Source: a virus. From it: 18,996 nt of DNA. The stretch lies in the UHGV virus genome UHGV-0337515. One strand, written 5' to 3'. Made by a program: the position numbers and the translations under genes. Below the pieces are notes generated by a model, which was not told the origin of the DNA, did not search any database, and saw nothing but the letters and a program-made list of their open reading frames with translations. Numbering within the stretch: position 1 is the first letter of the stretch; the number at the start of each line of letters is the position of its first letter. This document shows positions 1 to 11,123 of this stretch, piece by piece.

Positions 1-134
1 AACAATGGTTTGAACCCGGAACCGCCCGCGCGCTTGATGCGTTTATTGAGGGGATGACGCTGCATTTTGTCACCGACCGTAAGCCGCTATCGCGCGAGGA
101 GATTTTGAGGATGGTTGAGAGGGTTGCAGGGTAG
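1..134 (+). CDS. 3' end of a flanking (probably host) gene, C-terminal ~44 codons; product unknown
   Basis: Frame starting at position 3 is open from the window edge to TAG at 132-134 (…[33 protein letters not shown]). Not in the ORF track because no start codon lies in the window. Lies outside the phage-like genes. Confidence 0.35.
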
Positions 135-150
135 TAGATAAGTTTTAGAT

Positions 151-179
151 AACAAAAAACCCATTTATGTAAATGGGTT
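151..179 (-). terminator. Rho-independent terminator of the leftward cI-int operon; possibly overlaps the att core
   Basis: Perfect 10-bp inverted repeat aacccattta/taaatgggtt (158-167 / 170-179) with a 2-nt loop. On the minus strand it is followed by a T-run (plus-strand A-run 151-159). Confidence 0.55.
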
Positions 180-184
180 AATGA

Positions 185-216
185 AAACAATAAGTTAGAG
201 TAAAAACAATAAGTTG
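185..216. repeat. Two 13-bp direct repeats aaaacaataagtt (185-197 and 204-216); candidate integrase arm-type or IHF sites
   Basis: Exact 13-bp direct repeat 19 bp apart, in the non-coding region between the host gene end and the int-side genes. Confidence 0.45.
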
Positions 217-284
217 GGTTGGTGGTCAGTGGTGGTTATTACGGGGTAATGCCAACCGCTGCCGCCACTTTGTCGCCACTTGTT

Positions 285-554
285 TTACCTTAGACGCCAG
301 GGGCCTCTATCTTCAATCTGTTCGACTAACCCCTCCTCTTCTAGTTCACGCAATAGTGCAACAACCCAATATTGTTGGTTCGAACTTGTTGCTTTCCGTT
401 TTTCTCCCCAATCGAGGCCGCTTAGACGAAATACCTCAGCTTGCTTAACGCCGTTGCCGTTTTTTTGGGCATCTGGGTGAGTTTTAAGTACGGATAAAGC
501 CAATTCTTTGGCTCTGTTGCGCAATTCCGCTCCCTGATGCTGAAACTTATTCAT
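285..554 (-). CDS. Hypothetical 89-aa protein, possibly winged-helix DNA-binding, downstream of int
   Basis: ORF with GGAG 8 nt upstream of the ATG at 554. C-terminal half (QQYWVVALLRELEEEGLVEQ) resembles a winged-helix recognition region. Function not recognised. Confidence 0.55.
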   Translation of the reverse strand: MNKFQHQGAELRNRAKELALSVLKTHPDAQKNGNGVKQAEVFRLSGLDWGEKRKATSSNQQYWVVALLRELEEEGLVEQIEDRGPWRLR

Positions 555-612
555 TGATAGTGCTCCATGTGAAAAAAAAGAATATTAGCTCAACAGGGCA
601 AAATACGCATTT

Positions 613-1644
613 TCAAAAACTTGCTATTGATGTTGGTAGTGTTGCCAGCGGATTAAACCGTAATGCAGTTTCCAGGTGATCCGGTGCCAGATGTGCGTAA
701 CGCATAGTCATTTTTATATCGTGATGCCCGAGAATTTTTTGTAAGGCCAGGATATTTCCACCCGACATCATGAAGTGCGCCGCAAACGTATGGCGCAGAA
801 CGTGTGTCAGTTGACCGCGAGGGAGCACGATAGACGTTTTTTCCATCACGGATAAAAATTGAAAATAGCAGTCTGTAAAGAAATTGAACCCATCAAGCGC
901 CATGATCTCTTCGTAAAGCTCTTTACTGATAGGGATGCTTCTGTTTTTCTTCCCCTTCGTTCTTACAAAGGTAATTCGGTATTTGGTCACCTGTGAGCGG
1001 GTAAGATTTACGGCTTCACGCCAACGTGCGCCTGTGCTTAAGCATATCTTAACTACCAGTGCCAGAATTGGGTCCTGACGTTTGCAATCAGCCAGCAATT
1101 CAACAATCTGCTCATGGGTAAGCCATGCCATCTCTTTTTCTGCGATGGTGAATTTTCGCATGTTCTCCAGTGGGTTCGGATACGACCATTCGCCCAGGCG
1201 GGATAGTTCGCTAAAAACACTACTTAGATAGCTTTGCTCCAGGTTAATGGTGACCGGGCTTGCTCCTTTCTTCCATTTCTCGCTGAAGTAGATCTCACCT
1301 GTCAGGCGTTTATCTCGATAGTGGGCAAACATTTTAGATGTGAGATCAGTTGCAAGGGGATTGCCCAGAGCGTCAACCATCAGCAGCAATTTGTCATAGA
1401 CATGCTGCCCAGCAGTCAGTGATTTACCATGTAGTTTGAACCATAGCTCAACCACGTCTTTCAGTGTTCGACGATCCACTGATTCACCCAGCCAGGGCTT
1501 TGCTTCGGTTTCTTCCATCGTGTGACGCTCAAAAGCCAGTGCTTCGCCTTTGGTGGCGAATTGTTTACGCACACGACGCCCACTACGTCCGGCGGGGTAA
1601 CATTCGCAAAGCCATTTTCCTGTGGTGAGTTTTCGTACAGCCAT
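613..1644 (-). CDS. int: Tyrosine integrase (P2/186 Int family)
   Basis: Translation from ATG at 1644 (MAVRKLTTGKWLCECYPAGRSGRRVRKQFATKGEALAFE…) matches the P2 Int N-terminus. C-terminus carries HxLRHT…RYAHL catalytic motifs. The ORF-track 5' extension to 1800 has no counterpart in P2 Int. Confidence 0.92.
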   Translation of the reverse strand: MAVRKLTTGKWLCECYPAGRSGRRVRKQFATKGEALAFERHTMEETEAKPWLGESVDRRTLKDVVELWFKLHGKSLTAGQHVYDKLLLMVDALGNPLATDLTSKMFAHYRDKRLTGEIYFSEKWKKGASPVTINLEQSYLSSVFSELSRLGEWSYPNPLENMRKFTIAEKEMAWLTHEQIVELLADCKRQDPILALVVKICLSTGARWREAVNLTRSQVTKYRITFVRTKGKKNRSIPISKELYEEIMALDGFNFFTDCYFQFLSVMEKTSIVLPRGQLTHVLRHTFAAHFMMSGGNILALQKILGHHDIKMTMRYAHLAPDHLETALRFNPLATLPTSIASF

Positions 1645-1832
1645 AAAAAATGCCCTCCAATAGAGAGCATTTTTACTGTATGTATAACCAGTGTCAATGT
1701 ATGAAATCCTGCGACCATACATCTCACTGAAGCCATAATGAAGTAGGCTATTCTTTTTGCTATGTGAGCATGTAACTTTTGCGGTTAACCTGTGGCTCAT
1801 TTTTATTTTAGGCGCAGATATAAAAGCAAAAG

Positions 1833-2024
1833 TTATCGTGAGTTTTTAGTACAGATTTTTTTGGATTTACTAATAGTTCCATCATTGCAAACGAATTTGC
1901 CATCAGAGGTACAGTGAGAAACACCTCCCTTTTTCCCTGAGCAGGGATAATTTCTAGCATAGGTAGCTAGTGGGTTTAATAACAAAGAACATGACAAAAC
2001 CACAAAAAATACCTTACCAAGCAT
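1833..2024 (-). CDS. Small secreted cysteine-rich basic peptide (63 aa precursor, predicted signal peptide) between cI and int
   Basis: Strong SD (GGGAGG) 5 nt upstream of the ATG at 2024. N-terminal hydrophobic segment [23 protein letters not shown], then a ~40-aa Lys-rich region with 4 Cys. Starts 16 nt after the cI stop, so it sits in the lysogenic operon. Confidence 0.55.
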
Positions 2025-2039
2025 AATTTCCTCCCGGTA

Positions 2040-2609
2040 CTATTTAACATACTTGACTGTTAAACTTATAATTTTACCAATTATTTCAATGTCTTCTATC
2101 TTGCATTCGAAGGCTCTGTTTCCACCCTCGACGAAGATTCTTCCACCGGGTAAACGAGTAATGTCACGGATCGTTATTTCGCCATCAATACTTATTACCC
2201 ATTTACCATCACGTATATCATCAAATTCCTTATCACAAATAAATTCAGAATTATTATCTGTGATTACAAAAAGATTCTTGAATGCCGACGGTAGAAATTC
2301 TCTATCGAAAATATAAAAACCGTCTTCACACAAGGCCCCATCAGATAATACATATTTAGCAACTTCCATAGTATTTGTATTACCTGAAGTTTGCTTTGAA
2401 CCATGCCCGGTTGTGAGCCAATTAAGCGAGGTGCCTGTTTCAAGGGCGCACTGGATTACCCATTCTGCTGGGAATGAGTCACGCATGTAGCGTGTGGCGA
2501 GTGTACTTTTAGAGATTCCTAAATGATCGCACAACGCCTGTCGAGTCTTGAATCCATAAGCTTCTACCATGCGCTCTATAGCGCCTCGTCCGCCTTTCTC
2601 CAAATTCAT
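2040..2609 (-). CDS. cI: 186-type CI immunity repressor (about 189 aa)
   Basis: N-terminal HTH region (…VEAYGFKTRQALCDHLGISKSTLATRYMR…CALETGTSLNWLTTGHG) resembles phage 186 CI; its ~190 aa length fits 186 CI rather than the ~99-aa P2 C. ATG at 2609 has GGAG 6 nt upstream; the track start at 2615 is GTG. Confidence 0.85.
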   Translation of the reverse strand: MNLEKGGRGAIERMVEAYGFKTRQALCDHLGISKSTLATRYMRDSFPAEWVIQCALETGTSLNWLTTGHGSKQTSGNTNTMEVAKYVLSDGALCEDGFYIFDREFLPSAFKNLFVITDNNSEFICDKEFDDIRDGKWVISIDGEITIRDITRLPGGRIFVEGGNRAFECKIEDIEIIGKIISLTVKYVK

Positions 2610-2633
2610 GGTCACTCCAAGTGAACTTTTATC

Positions 2634-2662
2634 TTGACGATTTCACTGTGCGATCGTATGTT
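2634..2662 (+). promoter_or_regulatory. Candidate early lytic promoter pR (TTGACG-17 bp-TATGTT)
   Basis: -35 TTGACG at 2634-2639, 17-bp spacer, -10 TATGTT at 2657-2662, in the cI/apl intergenic region pointing toward apl. Confidence 0.5.
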
Positions 2663-2734
2663 TATGGTGTTCACAAAATACAAACGATCCGTATTCGTCC
2701 TGATTAATCATCATTAAACGAGGAATGTTGCATC

Positions 2735-2956
2735 ATGAGACCTAACATTTCAATCACTCTTACCACGCCTCATGTGACTATTGAACGCTATAGCGAGCTG
2801 ACAGGGCTATCCATCGATACCATCAATGACATGTTGGCTGATGGACGCCTTATCCGTCACCGTCTGCGCAAAGATAAAAAACGCGAAAAAGTGATGATCA
2901 ACATAGCAGCAATGACCGTTGATGCGCTTTCAGAATGCAATCTAAACCTTAATTAG
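2735..2956 (+). CDS. apl: Apl/Cox-like excisionase and transcriptional regulator (73 aa, HTH)
   Basis: First rightward gene, divergent from cI, same position as 186 apl / P2 cox. HTH-like segment [21 protein letters not shown]. Confidence 0.65.
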
Positions 2957-2988
2957 TTCGATTCTGAGATACATCAGAGGCATTGACC

Positions 2989-3498
2989 ATGTTTGATTAC
3001 CAAGTTTCCAAACATCCACATTTTGATGAAGCCTGTCGTGCATTCGCATTGCGCCACAACCTGGTGCAACTGGCAGAACGTGCTGGCATGAATGTGCAGA
3101 TTCTGCGGAACAAGCTGAACCCAGCTCAACCTCATTTATTAACCGCACCAGAAATCTGGCTGCTTACCGATCTGACTGAAGATTCAACGCTGGTAGATGG
3201 TTTTCTGGCTCAGATTCACTGCCTGCCATGCGTACCGATTAATGAGGTGGCAAAAGAGAAACTGCCACATTACGTCATGAGTGCAACCGCAGAGATCGGG
3301 CGTGTTGCTGCAGGTGCGGTATCTGGCGATGTAAAAACCAGTGCAGGTCGTCGTGATGCTATCAGCAGCATTAACTCTGTAACACGACTGATGGCGTTGG
3401 CTGCTGTTTCATTGCAGGCCCGTTTACAGGCTAACCCTGCGATGGCGAGTGCAGTTGATACCGTGACTGGCCTCGGTGCTTCATTCGGTTTGCTGTGA
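2989..3498 (+). CDS. cII: CII lysogeny-establishment activator (186 CII family)
   Basis: [24 protein letters not shown]…[25 protein letters not shown]…[21 protein letters not shown] closely matches remembered 186 CII. ATG at 2989 has AGAGG 9 nt upstream; the track start at 2983 is TTG. Confidence 0.85.
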
Positions 3499-4789: not shown

Positions 4790-5643
4790 GCACCATCCTG
4801 AAATGGGCGGGAAATAAAACCGCCATTATGTCTGAACTGAAAAAACATCTTCCTGCTGGCCCGCGACTGGTTGAACCTTTCGCGGGTTCCTGTGCAGTGA
4901 TGATGGAGACGGAGTACCCCAGCTATCTTGTCGCGGATATTAATCCTGATTTAATCAACCTCTATAAAAAGGTTGCTGCTGATTGTGAATCGTTTATATC
5001 TCGCGCCAGAGTTTTATTTGAGATCGCAAACAGGGAGGTGGCTTATTACAACATAAGGCAGGAGTTTAATTACTCAACTGAAATTACTGATTTCATGAAA
5101 GCGGTATATTTCCTGTATCTCAATCGTCACGGTTACCGTGGTTTATGTCGCTATAACAAGAGCGGGCATTTCAACATTCCCTACGGTAATTATAAAAATC
5201 CGTATTTCCCTGAAAAAGAAATTCGCGCATTTGCAGAAAGGGCCCAGCGAGCAACGTTTATCTGCGCCAGCTTTGATGAAACGCTGGCGATGTTGAAGGC
5301 GGGGGATGTGGTGTATTGCGATCCGCCGTATGACGGTACGTTTTCCGGCTATCACACTGACGGCTTCACTGAAGATGACCAGTATCACCTGGCATCTGTT
5401 CTTGAACATCGGTCATCAGAAGGACATCCGGTCATTGTTTCTAACAGTGACACATCCCTGATCCGTTCGCTGTATCGCAATTTTACTCACCACTACATCA
5501 AGGCAAAACGCAGCATCGGTGTGGCAGCTGGCGAGGGTAAATCAGCAACAGAAATCATTGCTGTTTCCGGGCCGCGCTGCTGGGTGGGATTTGATTATTC
5601 GCGTGGCGTGGACAGTTCTGCCGTGTACGAGGTGCGTGTATGA
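4786..5643 (+). CDS. dam: DNA adenine methyltransferase (Dam-like, N6-adenine)
   Basis: Starts [11 protein letters not shown] (Dam N-terminal SAM-binding signature) and contains the DPPY catalytic motif ([10 protein letters not shown]). ATG at 4786 has GGAGGTG upstream and overlaps the preceding stop. The track extension from 4726 is unsupported. Confidence 0.88.
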
Positions 5644-8054
5644 GTCATGCCGATATGAGCGACTCTAGCGGCTTTAACGAGGCCGCTGCAGCATTTTCAT
5701 GGAACGGCCCGAAAAAGGCCATAAACCCTTATCTGGACCCGGCGGAAGTTGCGCCGGTTTCTGCGCTTTCAAACCTGATCACTCTGTATGCTGCCGATAA
5801 CGAGCAGGAACAGCTGCGCCGCGAGGAATTGAGTGAACAGGTCTGGGAGCGTTATTTCTTTAATGAATCCCGTGATCCTGTCCAGCGCGAAATGGAGCAG
5901 GATAAGCTCATTAGTCGGGCAAAGCTGGCGCATGAGCAGCAGCGTTTTAACCCGGACATGGTCATTCTGGCGGACGTCAGCGCCCAGCCCACCCACATCA
6001 GCAAGCCGCTGATGCAACGTATCGAATACTTCTGCAGCCTTGGCAGGCCAAAGGCTTATTCCCGCTATTTGCGTGAGACGATTAAGCCATGTCTGGAGCG
6101 ACTGGATTGTGTACGCGACAGTCAGCTATCCACTTCTTTTCGCTTTATGGCGAGCCATGAAGGGCTGGACGGCCTGCTGATCCTGCCTGAAATGAGTCAG
6201 GATCAGGTGAAACGCCTGTCCACCCTGGTAGCTGCGCATATGAGCATGTGCCTTGATGCAGCTTGTGGCGATTTGTATGCCACCGATGACGTTAAGCCAG
6301 AAGAAATCCGCAAGACATGGGAAAGGGTGGCAGCAGAAACCCTGCGACTGGATGTTATCCCACCTGCGTTTGAGCAACTCCGCCGGAAAAGAAACCGCCG
6401 TAAACCCGTGCCCTATGAACTCATTCCGGGTTCGCTGGCGCGTATGTTGTGCGCCGACTGGTGGTATCGGAAATTATGGAAGATGCGTTGCGAATGGCGG
6501 GAAGAGCAGTTGCGCGCTGTCTGCCTGGTCAGCAAAAAAGCATCTCCCTATGTCAGCTATGAAGCCGTGATGCATAAACGTGAGCAGCGCCGTAAGTCGC
6601 TGGAGTTTTTTCGTTCTCATGAACTGGTGAACGAAGACGGCGATACGCTGGAGATGGAAGACGTGGTAAACGCCAGCAGCAGCAACCCTGCGCATCGCCG
6701 CAATGAGATGATGGCCTGTGTTAAAGGTCTGGAGCTTATCGCGGAAATGCGCGGTGACTGCGCCGTTTTCTACACCATCACCTGTCCGTCACGTTTCCAT
6801 TCCACGCTAAATAACGGCAGACCAAACCCGACCTGGACAAACGCGACGGTAAGACAAAGCAGTGATTATCTGGTCGGCATGTTTGCTGCATTTCGTAAAG
6901 CGATGCACAAAGCCGGATTGCGCTGGTATGGCGTGCGGGTGGCTGAGCCGCATCATGACGGTACAGTTCACTGGCACCTGTTGTGTTTTATGCGCAAAAA
7001 AGATCGCCGAGCCATTACTGCTTTGTTGCGTAAGTTTGCCATTCGTGAAGACCGCGAGGAGCTGGGTAATAACACGGGACCACGCTTTAAGTCTGAGCTG
7101 ATAAACCCGCGCAAAGGTACGCCAACAAGCTACATCGCGAAATACATCAGTAAGAACATTGACGGGCGTGGTCTGGCTGGTGAGATCAGCAAGGAAACGG
7201 GTAAATCCCTGCGTGATAACGCTGAATACGTTAATGCCTGGGCGTCTCTGCATCGTGTTCAGCAATTTCGCTTCTTTGGTATTCCGGGGCGTCAGGCTTA
7301 CCGTGAACTGCGATTGCTGGCTGGTCAGGCGGCAAGGCAGCAGGGGGACAAAAAAGCAGGTGCGCCGGTACTGGATAACCCACGCCTTGATGCCATCCTG
7401 GCTGCTGCTGATGCTGGCTGTTTTGCCACCTACATCATGAAGCAGGGCGGCGTGCTGGTTCCCCGCAAATATCACCTTATCAGAACAGCTTATGAAATTA
7501 ACGAAGAGCCGACCGCCTATGGCGATCACGGTATTCGTATTTATGGCATCTGGTCACCCATTGCAGAGGGCAAGATCTGCACTCATGCCGTGAAGTGGAA
7601 AATGGTTCGTAAGGCCGTTGACGTTCAGGAGGCGGCAGCCGACCAGGGCGCTTGCGCCCCTTGGACTCGTGGCAATAACTGTCCCCTTGCTGAAAATTTG
7701 AACCAACAGGAGAAAGATAAATCAGCTGATGGGGACACCAGAACGGACATTATCCGCATGGATGACAAGGAGTTGCACGATTACCTGCACAGTCTGAGCA
7801 AAAAAGAGCGCCGGGAACTGGCAGCAAGGTTACGCCTGGTTAAGCCGAAATGGCGTAAAGACTACAAACAGCGAATTACAGATCATCAGCGACAGCAGCT
7901 CGTCTATGAACTGAAGTCCAGGGGATTTGATGGCAGCGAGAAAGAGGTCGATTTACTGCTTCGCGGCGGCAGTATTCCGTCAGGAGCAGGCCTGCGTATC
8001 TTCTATCGGAACCAGCGTTTGCAGGAAGATGATAAGTGGCGAAACCTGTATTAA
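5640..8054 (+). CDS. A: Replication initiator A (rolling-circle nicking protein, P2 gpA / 186 RepA family)
   Basis: 804-aa protein with an HUH-like motif ([10 protein letters not shown]) and paired tyrosines (SYIAKYISK) as in the P2 A active site. Start overlaps the dam stop (ATGA). Confidence 0.9.
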
Positions 8055-8694: not shown

Positions 8695-8727
8695 GGCGAT
8701 GTCAATCAGATATCGCCTTGTTTTTTG
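8695..8727 (+). terminator. Weak candidate terminator hairpin between the DinI-like gene and the lipoprotein gene
   Basis: Inverted repeat ggcgat/atcgcc (8695-8700 / 8712-8717) followed by ttgttttttg. Confidence 0.3.
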
Positions 8728-8752
8728 TCAAGAAAAGAATAATAGGCTAAAA

Positions 8753-9430
8753 ATGAAAATTAATAATGTAGCGTTACCAATATCTCTTGCTGTAATCCTA
8801 ACTGGTTGCGTGCCACATGCTTCTAACCGAAATATCACTGCTATTGAAGTGGTGAAGCCAGCTATTGGGCAAAGTGCTACCGCCTACATGGGCGATCCCA
8901 TTATCACATCTGCTACTGGATTTAAAACGGACGTACTAGAACTTGGTGCGGCTAATGGTGCATTGTCTTCTATCGCTGCTGGTACATATTGCAGTGAGGG
9001 GAATGGAATTTACCGCAATTATCATAACCCTCAAGCTGTTGCGTTAAAAAATCTCTATGGGCAAATCGGTAACTATGTTGATTATGTTAGTTACGATGCT
9101 GCAAAAAATGAGATATCACCGCCAAATGGCACTTCTTATACTGCATCAGAAATTTCTATCAAACGTGTTCCTGATGGGCTGTGTCGAGTGAGTAATTCAT
9201 TGGTTAAGACTATCGAATATAATGGAAATGCAGGCGGTGTAATGAAGTTCACCTATCGTGAATTTGCAAACGATATGGCTCGTGCAGCATTTACAACAGA
9301 TTTTTCTGTAGATTCTAAGGGAAGTGATGTTATCGCTTACAAAGGTGCCAAGTTCAAAGTGAACAAGGCTGATAACTCGTCTATTTCTTATACAATTATT
9401 TCTGGCTTTGACAAGGCTGTCACGTTCTAG
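8753..9430 (+). CDS. Lipoprotein of unknown function (accessory gene)
   Basis: From ATG at 8753: MKINNVALPISLAVILTGC, a canonical lipoprotein signal peptide with lipobox LTGC. GC looks lower than the phage core genes. The track start at 8699 would put 18 residues in front of the signal peptide. Confidence 0.7.
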   Translation: MKINNVALPISLAVILTGCVPHASNRNITAIEVVKPAIGQSATAYMGDPIITSATGFKTDVLELGAANGALSSIAAGTYCSEGNGIYRNYHNPQAVALKNLYGQIGNYVDYVSYDAAKNEISPPNGTSYTASEISIKRVPDGLCRVSNSLVKTIEYNGNAGGVMKFTYREFANDMARAAFTTDFSVDSKGSDVIAYKGAKFKVNKADNSSISYTIISGFDKAVTF

Positions 9431-9724: not shown

Positions 9725-9753
9725 TTGACTTGAGGTGTAGTTGCAGTATTATA
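9725..9753 (+). promoter_or_regulatory. Candidate sigma70 promoter of the two-gene cassette (TTGACT-16/17 bp-TATTAT)
   Basis: -35 TTGACT at 9725-9730 and -10 TATTAT at 9747-9752, followed by AAGGA (9761-9765) and ATG at 9775. Confidence 0.55.
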
Positions 9754-9774
9754 AAAAGAAAAAGGATCTTTCTT

Positions 9775-10506
9775 ATGTACAGATTGTGGGTTTTATGGGG
9801 TTGTATCTTTGTTCTTCTACTTATTATCATGGGGTGCATTCCGTTTTCACCGTTTGAAAAATGGTGGTTTATAGTTAATTTCATGTCAAATGTAAACATA
9901 ATTCGTGCTTTTCTATCAGTATTAATACTATTTTTAGTTGCTTATATCTTGCTGGTCGGTGCATTTCATCAAAGATATTCATTGAGATTAGAGCAACTTA
10001 GTTTTGGTGGTATTAATATTTTACTAAATAAGTCTGATCTTCTTTTTAAAAAGAGCGTAAAAAATTATCTGGATACGAAGCGAACATTATTTAAATTTGA
10101 TCCGAATTATGACTCAATTGAAGAAGTTTTAAACTCATATTATGAGTGCTATAAATTCATTAGAGATGAAATGAAATTACTAGATGTGAAGAAAAAAAGA
10201 GATAAAAAACTGTATTTACTTTCAAATGAAATTTTGAAAACGTTAAACTCTTTTTTAACAAAGCATCAAAATAATTATCGGAGATGGCATAAATATGTTT
10301 CAGATAATGATAAAGTGACCACAAAGGATAGAGACCCTAACGGCGAATTTATATCATTGCCGTATCATTTAACCCCTATAAGTACTATACAAAAGCATTA
10401 TTATCATTTTAGTCAAGTATTGGAAGGTTTTAAAGAAGTAAACGATTTCTTCAATGATAAGGTAGTCAAAGAGTTTGATATAAATGTTGATAAATGGAGT
10501 GAATAA
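9775..10506 (+). CDS. Membrane protein with two N-terminal transmembrane helices and a ~170-aa helical C-terminal domain; candidate defence effector
   Basis: From ATG at 9775: hydrophobic helices LWVLWGCIFVLLLIIMGCIPF and IIRAFLSVLILFLVAYILLVGAF. Very AT-rich compared with flanking phage genes. Stop overlaps the next gene's start (TAATG). The track start at 9730 is TTG inside the promoter. Confidence 0.75.
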   Translation: MYRLWVLWGCIFVLLLIIMGCIPFSPFEKWWFIVNFMSNVNIIRAFLSVLILFLVAYILLVGAFHQRYSLRLEQLSFGGINILLNKSDLLFKKSVKNYLDTKRTLFKFDPNYDSIEEVLNSYYECYKFIRDEMKLLDVKKKRDKKLYLLSNEILKTLNSFLTKHQNNYRRWHKYVSDNDKVTTKDRDPNGEFISLPYHLTPISTIQKHYYHFSQVLEGFKEVNDFFNDKVVKEFDINVDKWSE

Positions 10507-11123
10507 TGCATAAGACGTTTCTTAGTTATCATCATGCTAACGAACAAGATCTCAAAGATGAGATTATTGATTTATTCGGAGGAGAATCGTTTATTGATAA
10601 GTCGGTAAGTGATGGTGACATTAGTACAACTAACACTGATGAAACAATAATGAGGACTATTCGTGAGGATTTTTTAAAAGACTCAACGGTTACTGTCGTT
10701 CTTATTGGAACGGAAACCAAAAATCGTCCATTTGTAAACTCTGAAATTCAAGCATCACTCTGGGGAGAAAACTATAATGGTCTAATTGGTGTTATCAGAG
10801 ATGAAATTTACGACAGTGTGTTTACTCCTGCAGTATGTGCAGATCCATCATGCGGATGTTCTATAAGTCTAAGAACGCCAGGTTGGGGATATGATTATTA
10901 TTTGCCTTATCTGGTTAGAAAGAATCATGTTTATGAAAAAACAGTTCCCCATTATAATGACTCTGACGTATATTGTGCATTGGTAAAATACTCTGTCTTT
11001 ATTAAAAATCCTGAGTATTATATTGATCAGGCATTTAACAAGCGTAAGTTGATGGAACCAGCTGCTAAACGAAATCCATCGGATGTTCCTGCAATTCGCA
11101 GCTCATCAATTTTTAACTGGTAA
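10506..11123 (+). CDS. TIR-like domain protein (ThsB/DUF1863-like), candidate defence sensor or NADase
   Basis: N-terminus MHKTFLSYHHANEQD fits the TIR first-strand signature (compare ThsB …VFFSFHYQD… as remembered); central TVTVVLIGTETKNRPFVNSEIQ fits the TIR core strand plus conserved Glu region. Translationally coupled to the upstream membrane protein. AT-rich. Confidence 0.7.
   Translation: MHKTFLSYHHANEQDLKDEIIDLFGGESFIDKSVSDGDISTTNTDETIMRTIREDFLKDSTVTVVLIGTETKNRPFVNSEIQASLWGENYNGLIGVIRDEIYDSVFTPAVCADPSCGCSISLRTPGWGYDYYLPYLVRKNHVYEKTVPHYNDSDVYCALVKYSVFIKNPEYYIDQAFNKRKLMEPAAKRNPSDVPAIRSSSIFNW

What the first reader, a model, noticed from the sequence alone, without database searches (positions are those of the whole stretch)
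1833..2024. Small secreted cysteine-rich basic peptide gene inside the lysogenic cI-int operon
A 63-aa ORF with a strong SD sits between cI and int, on the transcript made in lysogens. It has a signal-peptide-like N-terminus and a ~40-aa Lys-rich region with four cysteines (two possible disulfides). P2 and 186 have no gene here as far as I recall. A secreted peptide expressed constitutively from a prophage could be a lysogenic-conversion factor (toxin, enzyme inhibitor, or superinfection-exclusion factor).
Basis: partly seen in the sequence, partly recalled or inferred. Interest (0 to 1): 0.5.

Follow-up and report, generated by a model that had tools for sequence, protein, structure and literature searches.

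The report
Prophage-borne secreted YdcA-family mini-protein gene
The small ORF between the repressor and integrase genes of this E. coli 186-like prophage is a real, strongly conserved gene for an exported 40-residue basic mini-protein of the already named but functionally uncharacterised YdcA family, so it is an ordinary phage cargo gene with an open function.

Summary
A 63-codon ORF (1833..2024, minus strand) starts 15 nt after the cI stop, behind a GGAGG, and ends 188 nt before int. It is a real gene. It passes the curated NCBIfam model NF007463, matches PHROG 6000, carries Pfam PF27300 (YdcA), and RefSeq calls it "YdcA family protein". Across 81 copies there are 13 synonymous and 2 conservative non-synonymous codon variants, with none non-synonymous in residues 25-63.

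Phages 186 and P2 have no gene at this position. Diverged alleles sit directly after cI in E. coli and Hafnia prophages, and as an unannotated ORF in Haemophilus phages HP2 and S2. The slot also carries other cargo, such as a KAP NTPase.

The predicted product is a Sec-exported 40-residue peptide cut after Ala23, with four invariant cysteines and pI 9.7. The same domain forms both lobes of Legionella T4SS subunit Dis2. It is also the N-terminal module of secreted nucleases of three unrelated folds.

My best reading is a periplasmic binding module made in lysogens, most likely binding DNA or another polyanion. That function is inferred and untested. Novelty is a new member of a known family; interest is moderate.

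The parts
2040..2615 (-). cI immunity repressor, 186 type. The GTG ORF runs 2040..2615. RefSeq annotates the 570-nt version of this gene, corresponding to window 2040..2609.
   Evidence: Pfam Phage_CI_repr 2.8e-33 and Phage_CI_C 2.7e-27. RefSeq annotation 'phage repressor protein CI'.
2030..2035 (-). Shine-Dalgarno GGGAGG for the small ORF, inside the 15-nt cI-ORF gap, with a 5-nt spacer to the ATG.
   Evidence: Read directly from the sequence.
1833..2024 (-). ydcA-family gene: 63 codons plus stop. This is the finding.
   Evidence: ORF list. NCBIfam NF007463 114.6 bits, above the cut-off of 93. PHROG 6000 at 3e-34. Pfam PF27300 YdcA precomputed. 13 synonymous against 2 non-synonymous codon variants.
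1956..2024 (-). Predicted Sec signal peptide, residues 1-23, with signal peptidase I cleavage after A-T-Y-A23.
   Evidence: Hydrophobic core. Across 212 family members the -1 position is Ala in 155 and the -3 position is A/T/S/V in 179. The domain follows a signal peptide in the family, median start at residue 28. Signal peptides diverge while the core stays conserved.
1836..1955 (-). Mature 40-residue peptide (4.3 kDa, pI 9.7) holding the YdcA domain [12 protein letters not shown]..[17 protein letters not shown] with four invariant Cys.
   Evidence: Alignments A1 and A4. AF2 core pLDDT 88-91. Dis2 match.
1645..1832 (-). 188-nt non-coding spacer between the small gene and int. It holds a sigma-70-like TTGACA-17-AAAAAT at 1697..1669. 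Its int-proximal 60-80 nt are shared with prophages that lack the gene.
   Evidence: Promoter scan. Partial matches in CFT073 and BDSF8-3. No Rfam match.
613..1644 (-). int, a tyrosine integrase.
   Evidence: Pfam Int_N 3e-32 and Phage_integrase 6.8e-22.
285..554 (-). 89-aa ORF downstream of int, positionally equivalent to 186 Orf69. It is the last gene of the inferred lysogenic operon.
   Evidence: ORF list. 186 map. Annotated as hypothetical in RefSeq copies.
158..179 (-). Terminator-like hairpin plus T-run, the likely end of the lysogenic transcript. No minus-strand terminator-like site was found between cI and int.
   Evidence: Terminator scan. A terminator at the analogous position is annotated in 186.
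2616..2734 (.). cI/apl divergent switch region, where pR and pL are expected by analogy with 186.
   Evidence: 186 annotation. Promoter-like TTGACG-17-TATGTT at 2634..2662 on the plus strand. The function is inferred and was not tested.

Best explanation
**What it is**
The ORF is a functional prophage cargo gene (a "moron") of the YdcA family (Pfam PF27300). It was inserted as a roughly 315-400 bp AT-rich cassette directly after cI in a 186-like prophage integrated next to the host gene rcdA.

**Expression (inferred)**
There is no terminator between cI and int, and the gene has its own strong ribosome-binding site 15 nt after the cI stop. It should therefore be made from the pL lysogenic transcript together with the repressor, that is, continuously in lysogens.

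**Export and maturation**
- Predicted: the Sec system exports the precursor.
- Predicted: signal peptidase I cuts after Ala23.
- Inferred from the solved relative Dis2: the four invariant cysteines form disulfides in the periplasm.
- The product would be a 40-residue basic mini-protein of 4.3 kDa.

**Mechanism (inferred)**
It has no catalytic features and most likely acts as a stand-alone binding module in the cell envelope. The same domain is the N-terminal accessory module of secreted nucleases of three unrelated folds. It also forms both lobes of the outer-membrane-proximal T4SS subunit Dis2. I therefore think the most likely ligand is DNA or another phosphate-rich polyanion in the periplasm. 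Docking onto outer-membrane-associated assemblies is the alternative.

In either case, the benefit to the prophage would be to change what happens to foreign DNA or envelope machines in the lysogen.

**Rough sub-probabilities**

| Claim | Probability |
|---|---|
| Real YdcA-family gene | 0.97 |
| Exported and cleaved | 0.85 |
| Co-transcribed with cI | 0.8 |
| Binding module rather than enzyme or toxin | 0.6 |
| Ligand is nucleic acid | 0.35 |
For: **Family membership**
- NF007463 scores above its curated cut-off. PHROG 6000 matches. PF27300 is assigned. RefSeq names it a YdcA family protein.

**Selection**
- Among 81 copies there are 13 synonymous and 2 conservative non-synonymous codon variants, with none non-synonymous in residues 25-63.

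**Signal peptide**
- The AxA rule is conserved across 212 members, and the domain starts right after the signal peptide.

**Position in the operon**
- In 80 of 80 IMG/VR loci, cI ends 18 nt upstream (a gap that includes the cI stop codon) and the int match begins about 195 nt downstream. This holds although cI alleles range 86-100% identity and int alleles 69-100%.
- Diverged alleles (67% and 63% identity) sit in the same place in other E. coli and Hafnia prophages.
- In Haemophilus phage HP2, a 60-aa homologue overlaps the cI stop (ATGA).
- No terminator-like site lies between cI and int.
- The gene is absent from 186 and P2. GC is 35%, against 45-53% in the int and early-gene flanks, although the adjacent 3' half of cI is equally AT-rich (31-37.5%).

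**The slot carries other cargo**
- It holds a KAP NTPase, which matches PADLOC PDC-S20 at 569 bits.
- The integrase-primase interval is a published minor defence hotspot of P2-like phages (PMC13586616).

**Domain function**
- Fusions exist with SNase, Endonuclease_NS and PLD-type nuclease domains.
- All 120 best homologues of one fusion keep the PF27300 + PF01223 architecture.
- The only solved relative is Dis2: profile E = 1.6e-5, mature-peptide E = 2.2e-4 over both lobes, Foldseek probability 0.99.
- Dis2 is disulfide-pinned, lies near the outer membrane, and contacts DotK, DotC and DotD (PMC8486379 and PMC12716638).
Against: - No experiment on any family member shows DNA binding. Published data on chromosomal ydcA give only a 3-hydroxypropionate sensitivity phenotype and reported acid induction (PMC7642389).
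- In the one solved structure the domain contacts proteins, not DNA.
- A strongly basic character is not universal. The mean net charge of the domain across representatives is about +3, ranging from -1 to +7. Most invariant residues are Cys, Gly, Ser and Pro rather than Lys or Arg.
- Nuclease fusions could equally mean an envelope-retention module.
- Transcription from pL, export, cleavage and disulfide formation are all predictions.
- A promoter-like site upstream of int shows the operon structure may differ from that of 186.
- E. coli is not known for natural DNA uptake into the periplasm, which weakens a "DNA trap" role in this host.
Confidence: 0.45

Rival explanations
1. It is an envelope-acting superinfection-exclusion or anti-phage factor. 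A periplasmic mini-protein made in lysogens would block injection, receptor function or an incoming phage's periplasmic enzymes, in the manner of T4 Spackle or the Cor/Llp lipoproteins, without any DNA binding.
For: - It is expressed from the lysogenic operon at a slot that also carries a KAP NTPase matching the PADLOC candidate system PDC-S20.
- The integrase-primase interval is a published minor defence hotspot of P2-like phages.
- In Acinetobacter prophages the gene sits among accessory genes such as HicAB and SocA_Panacea.
Against: - There is no PADLOC match and no similarity to any known exclusion protein.
- Chromosomal, plasmid-borne and nuclease-fused copies argue for a more general molecular role.
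- No phenotype data exist.
Confidence: 0.2
2. It is an envelope-homeostasis or stress-tolerance factor, as proposed for chromosomal YdcA. A small periplasmic protein would dock on outer-membrane-associated protein assemblies or on the membrane and improve lysogen fitness (for example acid or organic-acid tolerance), unrelated to foreign DNA.
For: - Deleting chromosomal ydcA sensitises E. coli W to 3-hydroxypropionate, and the gene is reported to be acid-induced via YdcI (PMC7642389).
- Dis2 is a peripheral, dispensable subunit that contacts lipoproteins near the outer membrane.
- A Moraxellaceae cassette pairs the gene with a membrane-anchored protein.
Against: - This reading does not explain the recurrent fusion to three unrelated nuclease folds.
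- The prophage copy belongs to a different NCBIfam equivalog from K-12 YdcA (NF007462 scores 68.5 against a cut-off of 118).
- E. coli already has a chromosomal copy.
Confidence: 0.2
3. It is a secreted toxin, antimicrobial peptide or protease inhibitor. This treats it as a defensin-like or Pin-II-like disulfide-rich cationic peptide.
For: - It is small, cationic and cysteine-containing.
- There are weak phmmer matches to plant Pin-II proteinase inhibitors (E 0.07-0.8).
Against: - The matches are not significant, and Pin-II domains have eight cysteines against four here.
- Sec export stops in the periplasm, and there is no immunity or export partner.
- The domain occurs as an accessory module of enzymes.
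Confidence: 0.05
4. It is not a gene. On this reading it is a chance ORF in an AT-rich intergenic spacer that is conserved for regulating int.
For: - The region is AT-rich and lies upstream of int.
- The homologous ORF is left unannotated in HP2 and S2 and in some phage records.
Against: - Curated family models are passed.
- 459 clusters at 50% identity exist across Proteobacteria.
- The synonymous-to-non-synonymous pattern is 13:2.
- The ORF is conserved where the surrounding DNA is unrelated, in Haemophilus, Moraxella and Acinetobacter.
Confidence: 0.01

Closest known systems
E. coli K-12 YdcA (b1419, 57 aa, between trg and cybB)
   Same: It belongs to the same family (PF27300 / PRK10040). 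It has the same plan: a signal peptide followed by one four-cysteine domain. About 79% of positions in the core are identical by my hand count from the translations. Its function is also unknown.
   Different: It is chromosomal and not phage-borne. It belongs to a different NCBIfam equivalog: the window protein scores 68.5 against a cut-off of 118 on NF007462 but passes NF007463. The signal peptide is unrelated. It is reported to be under YdcI/acid control, not under a phage repressor promoter.
Legionella pneumophila Dis2 (Lpg0823), Dot/Icm T4SS outer-membrane-cap subunit (PDB 7MUC/7MUD)
   Same: It is the only solved structure with this domain. The motif CS-K-GG-I-x-C..G-x-VCN-x-G-x-S is shared. 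It is periplasmic, disulfide-pinned and close to the outer membrane.
   Different: Dis2 has two lobes and five disulfides, is 124 aa long, and is a stoichiometric part of a T4BSS, contacting DotK, DotC and DotD. The window protein has one lobe and there is no T4SS nearby. Identity is only about 38% over 39 columns. The Dis2 papers describe it as Legionella-specific and without structural relatives.
PF27300-nuclease fusion proteins (for example Methylobacter 'endonuclease G' with PF27300 + PF01223; also SNase and PLD-Nuc fusions)
   Same: The identical domain sits directly after a signal peptide.
   Different: In those proteins the domain is an accessory module of a catalytic protein of 200-330 aa encoded on chromosomes. 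Here it stands alone and has no catalytic partner in the operon.
Unannotated 60-aa ORF of Haemophilus phages HP2 and S2 (between cI and orf1(S)/int)
   Same: It is a P2-family temperate phage, with the same position immediately after cI on the same strand. The domain is the same, at 51% identity.
   Different: Its start overlaps the cI stop (ATGA). It is followed by a secreted protein with an OB-fold (tRNA_anti-like) domain. It is not annotated in GenBank.
Classical P2 and 186 accessory genes (old, tin, fun(Z) of P2; Orf69 of 186) and the defence hotspots of P2-like phages
   Same: These are non-essential cargo carried at variable loci of P2-like prophages and expressed from the prophage. The slot described here falls in the integrase-primase interval, listed as a minor hotspot.
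   Different: There is no sequence relationship. Those genes are cytoplasmic defence proteins with known phenotypes, whereas this product is exported and has no known phenotype. The names old, tin and fun come from my own knowledge of the P2 literature and were not checked here.

Membership tests
YdcA family (NCBIfam NF007463 / Pfam PF27300 / PHROG 6000) | The score reaches the curated cut-off of the family model. | tested here: met
   NF007463 scores 114.6 bits against a cut-off of 93, E = 1.3e-33. PHROG 6000 gives E = 3.1e-34. PF27300 is precomputed on the identical protein P0001.
YdcA family (NCBIfam NF007463 / Pfam PF27300 / PHROG 6000) | Signature P-C-S-G-x-K-G-G-[IV]-x-x-C ... F-[VI]-C-x-[DN]-G-x-x-S-x-S-x(2-4)-C with four invariant cysteines. 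| tested here: met
   All invariant columns are present (P27 C28 G33 G34 C38 C46 G49 S52 S54 C58) in alignments of 31 and 96 sequences.
YdcA family (NCBIfam NF007463 / Pfam PF27300 / PHROG 6000) | The domain lies directly behind a cleavable Sec signal peptide, giving a periplasmic or extracytoplasmic product. | tested here: met
   There is a hydrophobic core plus A-x-A. Across 212 members the -1 position is Ala in 155 and the -3 position is small in 179. The median domain start is residue 28. This is sequence prediction only; no SignalP tool was available and no experiment was done.
K-12-type YdcA equivalog (NCBIfam NF007462) | The score reaches the equivalog cut-off. | tested here: not met
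   It scores 68.5 bits against a cut-off of 118. The window protein is a paralogous subtype, not the ortholog of b1419.
Dis2-type T4SS outer-membrane-cap subunit | Two tandem YdcA-like lobes pinned by five disulfides. | tested here: not met
   The window protein has a single lobe with four cysteines. Dis2 matches twice, at residues 41-72 and 89-111. The structure is described in PMC8486379.
Dis2-type T4SS outer-membrane-cap subunit | Physical association with a Dot/Icm-type secretion machine. | not testable with these tools
   No T4SS gene was seen among the ORFs I looked at in the window, which is a P2/186-like prophage. Binding to any envelope machine of E. coli cannot be assessed in silico.
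Phage moron / lysogenic-conversion cargo | Dispensable insertion, absent from close relatives, at a locus with alternative cargo and deviant base composition. | tested here: met
   The gene is absent from 186 and P2. The same slot holds a KAP NTPase, a 323-aa protein or a 347-aa protein in relatives. GC is 35% against 45-53% in the flanks.
Phage moron / lysogenic-conversion cargo | Expression from the repressed prophage. | not testable with these tools
   Expression is inferred from the position 15 nt after cI with no terminator-like site before int. No transcriptome or ribosome-profiling data were examined.
Known anti-phage defence or superinfection-exclusion proteins | Homology to a catalogued defence protein. 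| tested here: not met
   PADLOC gave no family at E <= 0.1.
Bacterial lipoprotein | A lipobox [LVI][ASTVI][GAS]C at the end of a signal peptide of adequate length, conserved in relatives. | tested here: not met
   V-L-S-C12 resembles a lipobox, but it would leave an 11-residue signal peptide. In relatives the Cys is preceded by F, I or V (LLFC, LLIC, ILVC) or is absent. The conserved A-x-A site downstream fits signal peptidase I.
Pin-II (potato type II) proteinase inhibitors | Significant sequence match and the eight-cysteine framework. | tested here: not met
   E-values are 0.07-0.8, and there are only four cysteines in the mature peptide.

The most novel reading that the evidence does not exclude
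PF27300 (YdcA) is a previously unrecognised periplasmic DNA-binding mini-domain. Stand-alone copies carried by prophages and by small mobilisable plasmids would act as a "periplasmic DNA trap or gatekeeper" that interferes with incoming DNA. Such copies occur in E. coli, Haemophilus, Moraxella and Acinetobacter; from my own knowledge, the last three are naturally competent. The interference could act on transformation, conjugation or superinfection, and would protect the resident element from displacement. The same module would give secreted nucleases their substrate grip, and would have been co-opted as Dis2 in the DNA- and protein-translocating Dot/Icm machine.
Probability: 0.15. Interest if true: 0.75.

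Novelty: new member of a known kind. Interest (0 to 1): 0.4.

Why it matters
- **Prevalence.** The gene is present in about 11% of complete E. coli genomes (590 of 5426), including a B-strain derivative used in the laboratory, T7Express. Its family is very common in Acinetobacter baumannii prophages. No function is known for any member.
- **A handle on the function.** A mini-protein made continuously in lysogens next to the repressor is a candidate fitness or exclusion factor.
- **New connections.** This analysis links three things that the literature treats separately: the orphan E. coli protein YdcA, the "Legionella-specific" T4SS subunit Dis2, and the N-terminal module of a large clade of secreted nucleases. 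That yields a concrete, cheap hypothesis to test, namely polyanion or DNA binding by a 40-residue peptide that can be synthesised.
- **If the hypothesis fails.** The gene remains an ordinary phage cargo gene of unknown function.

Tried and rejected
**Searches that gave nothing useful**
- The local Pfam library gave no significant hit because its copy lacks PF27300. There was only a chance match at E = 0.076.
- PADLOC gave no hit.
- Rfam gave no match over 100..3000.
- Foldseek against viral predicted structures gave nothing significant.
- The AlphaFold-database library was not available.
- The paper search found no functional study of the family.
- Megablast of the region against sequenced phages found only the 5' end of int in Klebsiella phages, so no isolated E. 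coli phage in that collection carries the gene.

**Searches that did not give what I wanted**
- The profile search of the clustered protein database listed only stand-alone proteins among its best 120, so it gave no architecture census. A first attempt failed because the query was too short.

**Ideas rejected**
- Lipoprotein: the lipobox is too early in the sequence and not conserved.
- Pin-II inhibitor: the match is sub-significant and the cysteine count is wrong.
- Chance ORF.
- A conserved two-gene cassette in this window: the Moraxellaceae partner protein has no counterpart in the 188-nt spacer.
- The UniRef name "Conjugal transfer protein" for this cluster looks like propagated annotation and was not used as evidence.

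**Lead not tested**
- A resemblance to DUF3761, recalled from memory, could not be tested. The second domain of 105-aa betaproteobacterial members does match PBCV_basic_adap weakly (best 22.6 bits against a cut-off of 20.4).
Full report
**1. The observation.**

The window starts in the 3' end of the host gene rcdA and runs into a 186-like (P2-family) prophage. The minus strand reads, in transcription order:
- cI (2040..2615; Pfam Phage_CI_repr and Phage_CI_C)
- the 63-codon ORF (1833..2024)
- a 188-nt spacer
- int (613..1644)
- an 89-codon ORF (285..554)
- a terminator-like hairpin (179..158)

The ORF's ATG is 15 nt after the cI stop and is preceded by GGGAGG with a 5-nt spacer. No terminator-like element on this strand separates cI from int.

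- The N-terminus is hydrophobic.
- The 40 residues after the predicted cleavage site hold 7 Lys and 2 Arg against 2 Asp, giving pI 9.7.
- They also hold four cysteines.

In 186, cI and int abut. In P2, C and int are separated by 115 nt with no gene.

**2. It is a real gene of a named family.**

- The protein passes the curated NCBIfam equivalog NF007463 (114.6 bits, cut-off 93). It matches PHROG 6000 (E = 3e-34) and carries the precomputed Pfam domain PF27300, named YdcA.
- Newer RefSeq annotations call it "YdcA family protein".
- It does not reach the cut-off of NF007462, which I take to be the model for the K-12 chromosomal YdcA type (68.5 against 118). It is therefore a paralogous subtype. 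The chromosomal gene sits between trg and cybB.
- An exhaustive profile search found 459 clusters at 50% identity with E <= 0.001. Most encode proteins of 55-130 residues.
- The ORF plus spacer occurs in 590 of 5426 complete E. coli genomes at 80% coverage or more. One is a B-strain derivative (T7Express), where a decayed prophage still keeps int, the small gene and cI intact.
- Among 81 copies there are seven nucleotide alleles. They carry 13 synonymous and 2 non-synonymous codon variants. Both non-synonymous changes are conservative (A20T in the signal peptide; R24K at the first mature residue). Residues 25-63 are unchanged.

That criterion is not met.

**3. Export.**

No signal-peptide predictor was available, so I used comparative evidence.
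- N-terminal regions diverge freely across the family, while the core is nearly invariant.
- The domain begins right after the hydrophobic segment, at a median of residue 28.
- Four residues before the invariant Pro, the residue is Ala in 155 of 212 members. Two residues further upstream it is A, T, S or V in 179 of 212. This is the classical -1/-3 rule for signal peptidase I.
- In the window protein this places cleavage after A-T-Y-A23.
- A lipobox-like V-L-S-C12 is too early in the sequence and is not conserved as a lipobox.

**4. Genomic behaviour: a cargo gene tied to cI.**

- In all 80 IMG/VR loci recovered, cI ends 18 nt upstream of the gene (a gap that includes the cI stop codon), and the int match begins 192-195 nt downstream wherever int lies within the fetched locus (77 of 80). 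This holds even though cI alleles range from 86 to 100% identity and int alleles from 69 to 100%.
- A 67%-identical allele follows cI in other E. coli prophages and is itself followed by a KAP-family NTPase. A 91% (nucleotide)-identical allele has the same arrangement.
- A 63%-identical allele in Hafnia follows cI and precedes a 347-aa unknown protein.
- Relatives at the same rcdA site carry only the KAP NTPase (BDSF8-3) or a 323-aa protein (CFT073).
- The KAP NTPase matches the PADLOC candidate system PDC-S20 at 569 bits.
- A 2026 survey lists the integrase-primase interval as a minor defence hotspot of P2-like phages (PMC13586616).

Haemophilus phages HP2 and S2 are distant P2-family members, and tblastn reveals a homologue in the same place. 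It is an unannotated 60-codon ORF whose ATG overlaps the cI stop. It is followed by a secreted OB-fold protein and then int.

In other hosts the gene sits at other accessory loci.
- In Moraxella and Acinetobacter siphophages it lies in the tail-gene region. In Acinetobacter prophages it lies among toxin-antitoxin and other cargo.
- It also occurs on 3.9-5.4 kb Moraxellaceae plasmids, which encode MobA/MobL family proteins. There, and in Moraxella phage Mcat15, it is paired with a homologous membrane-anchored protein.

The gene is therefore a widely travelled mobile-element cargo gene.

**5. What the domain does elsewhere.**

*Dis2.* A profile of the family searched against all PDB sequences finds one significant relative: chain AN of 7MUC/7MUD, which is Legionella Dis2 (Lpg0823), at E = 1.6e-5.
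- The mature 40-mer alone still matches at E = 2.2e-4, and it aligns to both Dis2 lobes.
- Dis2 is described as two similar lobes pinned by five disulfides. It lies next to the outer membrane and contacts DotK, DotC and DotD.
- It is dispensable for assembly and has subtle effects on translocation.
- Its authors report no structural relatives and call it Legionella-specific (PMC8486379 and PMC12716638).

The link between Dis2 and YdcA supports a periplasmic location and disulfide stabilisation for the window protein.

*Nuclease fusions.* Among the 149 representative hits, longer proteins carry the domain, always right after the signal peptide, fused to nucleases of unrelated folds.

| Nuclease domain | Representatives | Scores or E-values |
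|---|---|---|
| SNase | P0109, P0216 | 85 and 64 bits |
| Endonuclease_NS | P0172, P0180, P0202 | 85, 114 and 32 bits |
| Endonuclease_NS (fragments aligning to P0180) | P0154, P0214 | 5e-26 and 9e-40 |
| PLD-type | P0176 | 69 bits |
| HNH (possible; below cut-off) | P0209 | 16.5 bits, cut-off 21.4 |

- All 120 best homologues of P0180 keep the PF27300 + PF01223 architecture. Examples come from Methylobacter, so the architecture is old and stable.
- Other partners are a T6SS VasL domain and a small basic PBCV_basic_adap-like domain.

**6. Mechanism.**

*Shown:*
- family membership
- purifying selection
- conserved position after cI
- the nuclease fusions
- similarity to Dis2

*Predicted:* Sec export, cleavage after A23, and disulfides.

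*Inferred:* co-transcription with cI from pL, by analogy with the 186 lysogenic operon and from the absence of a terminator.

*Inferred with moderate to low confidence:* the peptide is a stand-alone binding module. I favour DNA or another phosphate-rich polyanion as the ligand. Three unrelated secreted nucleases independently use the module, and the window copy has a net charge of +7.

The caveats are real.
- In Dis2 the domain contacts proteins.
- The family-wide mean charge is only about +3.
- The invariant residues are mainly Cys, Gly, Ser and Pro.
- The fusions could reflect retention in the envelope rather than a grip on substrate.
- The only published phenotypes concern chromosomal ydcA: 3-hydroxypropionate sensitivity and reported acid induction.

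The rivals are an envelope-acting exclusion factor, an envelope or stress fitness factor, a toxin or inhibitor, and a non-gene. I rate them at 0.2, 0.2, 0.05 and 0.01.

**7. Comparison and novelty.**

The gene is a member of the YdcA family by every feature I could test. It is not a Dis2-type subunit, because it has one lobe and no T4SS is nearby. It is not the ortholog of K-12 YdcA, and it is not a catalogued defence protein.

It fits the concept of a phage moron at a variable locus, except that it uses the operon's promoter rather than one of its own.

The exact protein is already in RefSeq under a family name, and the family is in Pfam, NCBIfam and PHROGs. I therefore rate the finding as a new member of a known kind. 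The protein itself is already annotated, but its function is open.

Three points appear not to be in the papers I could search:
- the link between YdcA, Dis2 and the nuclease modules
- the conserved cI-ydcA adjacency, which reaches as far as Haemophilus phages
- the unannotated HP2/S2 ORF

**8. Verdict.**

| Item | Assessment |
|---|---|
| Observation | Confirmed |
| Interest | 0.4 |

The gene is common and clearly selected, it has a cheap testable hypothesis, and no function is known for it. A specialist would not be very surprised to find a small secreted cargo gene in a prophage lysogeny operon.

The most novel reading not excluded is a periplasmic DNA-binding "gatekeeper" carried by mobile elements. 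I give it a probability of about 0.15.

Noticed in passing
window 10506..11123 (+), with 9730..10506 (+) and 8699..9430 (+): In the interval between the replication gene (5640..8054) and the late genes there is a 205-aa ThsB-like TIR protein (Pfam ThsB_TIR 1e-14; PADLOC ThsB 6.5e-12). Two ORFs of 258 and 243 aa precede it and have no Pfam or PADLOC match. This may be a Thoeris-like or novel defence cassette in the known GpA-GpQ hotspot of P2-like phages.
   Followed up: partly
[not shown]
   Followed up: yes
L013 1642..2973 (-); L096 2582..3913 (-); L102-L105 5198..6529 (+): The same cI-int slot in sister prophages carries a 443-aa KAP-family NTPase that matches PADLOC candidate system PDC-S20 (569 bits) and, more weakly, PifA. 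It occurs with or without the ydcA-like gene. CFT073 carries a 323-aa protein there, and Hafnia a 347-aa protein.
   Followed up: partly
L006 3438..4264; L009 728..1697; L010 2932..4091: In Moraxellaceae, the ydcA-like gene is followed by a protein of 212-319 aa with an N-terminal membrane anchor. The C-terminal domains of these proteins are related to one another (blastp 2e-8 to 7e-5 in a small database). This two-gene cassette is shared between a Moraxella catarrhalis phage (Mcat15) and 3.9-5.4 kb plasmids that encode MobA/MobL family proteins.
   Followed up: partly
window 1669..1697 (-): A sigma-70-like TTGACA-17-AAAAAT (10 of 12 matches) lies about 25 nt upstream of the int start. It sits in the part of the spacer that is shared with prophages lacking the small gene. 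It may be an int-proximal promoter that phage 186 does not have annotated.
   Followed up: no
window 285..554 (-): An 89-aa ORF between int and the prophage end occupies the position of 186 Orf69 but has no significant Pfam match. It is annotated as a hypothetical protein in the E. coli prophage copies listed.
   Followed up: no
L098-L101 (Acinetobacter baumannii prophages), gene at 5001..5177: The A. baumannii YdcA homologue is extremely common: the index lists it in more than 4000 blocks. It always lies between the tail-tube/YdaY genes and the tape-measure gene and is followed by a DUF4236 protein. HicAB, SocA_Panacea or DUF4325 cargo lies alongside it, which suggests a tail-module accessory hotspot.
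   Followed up: partly
P0111, P0118, P0138, P0143, P0147, P0162 and P0056-P0062 (about 100-150 aa family members): Many members, including betaproteobacterial ones such as Herbaspirillum, carry a second small cysteine domain, C-x-C-x(5-6)-C-T-G-P-[RK]-G-G-x-[YF]-C...G-x-K-S-Y. It matches Pfam PBCV_basic_adap weakly (best 22.6 bits against a cut-off of 20.4). Its C-x-G-x-[KR]-G-G motif echoes the first half of the YdcA domain.
   Followed up: partly
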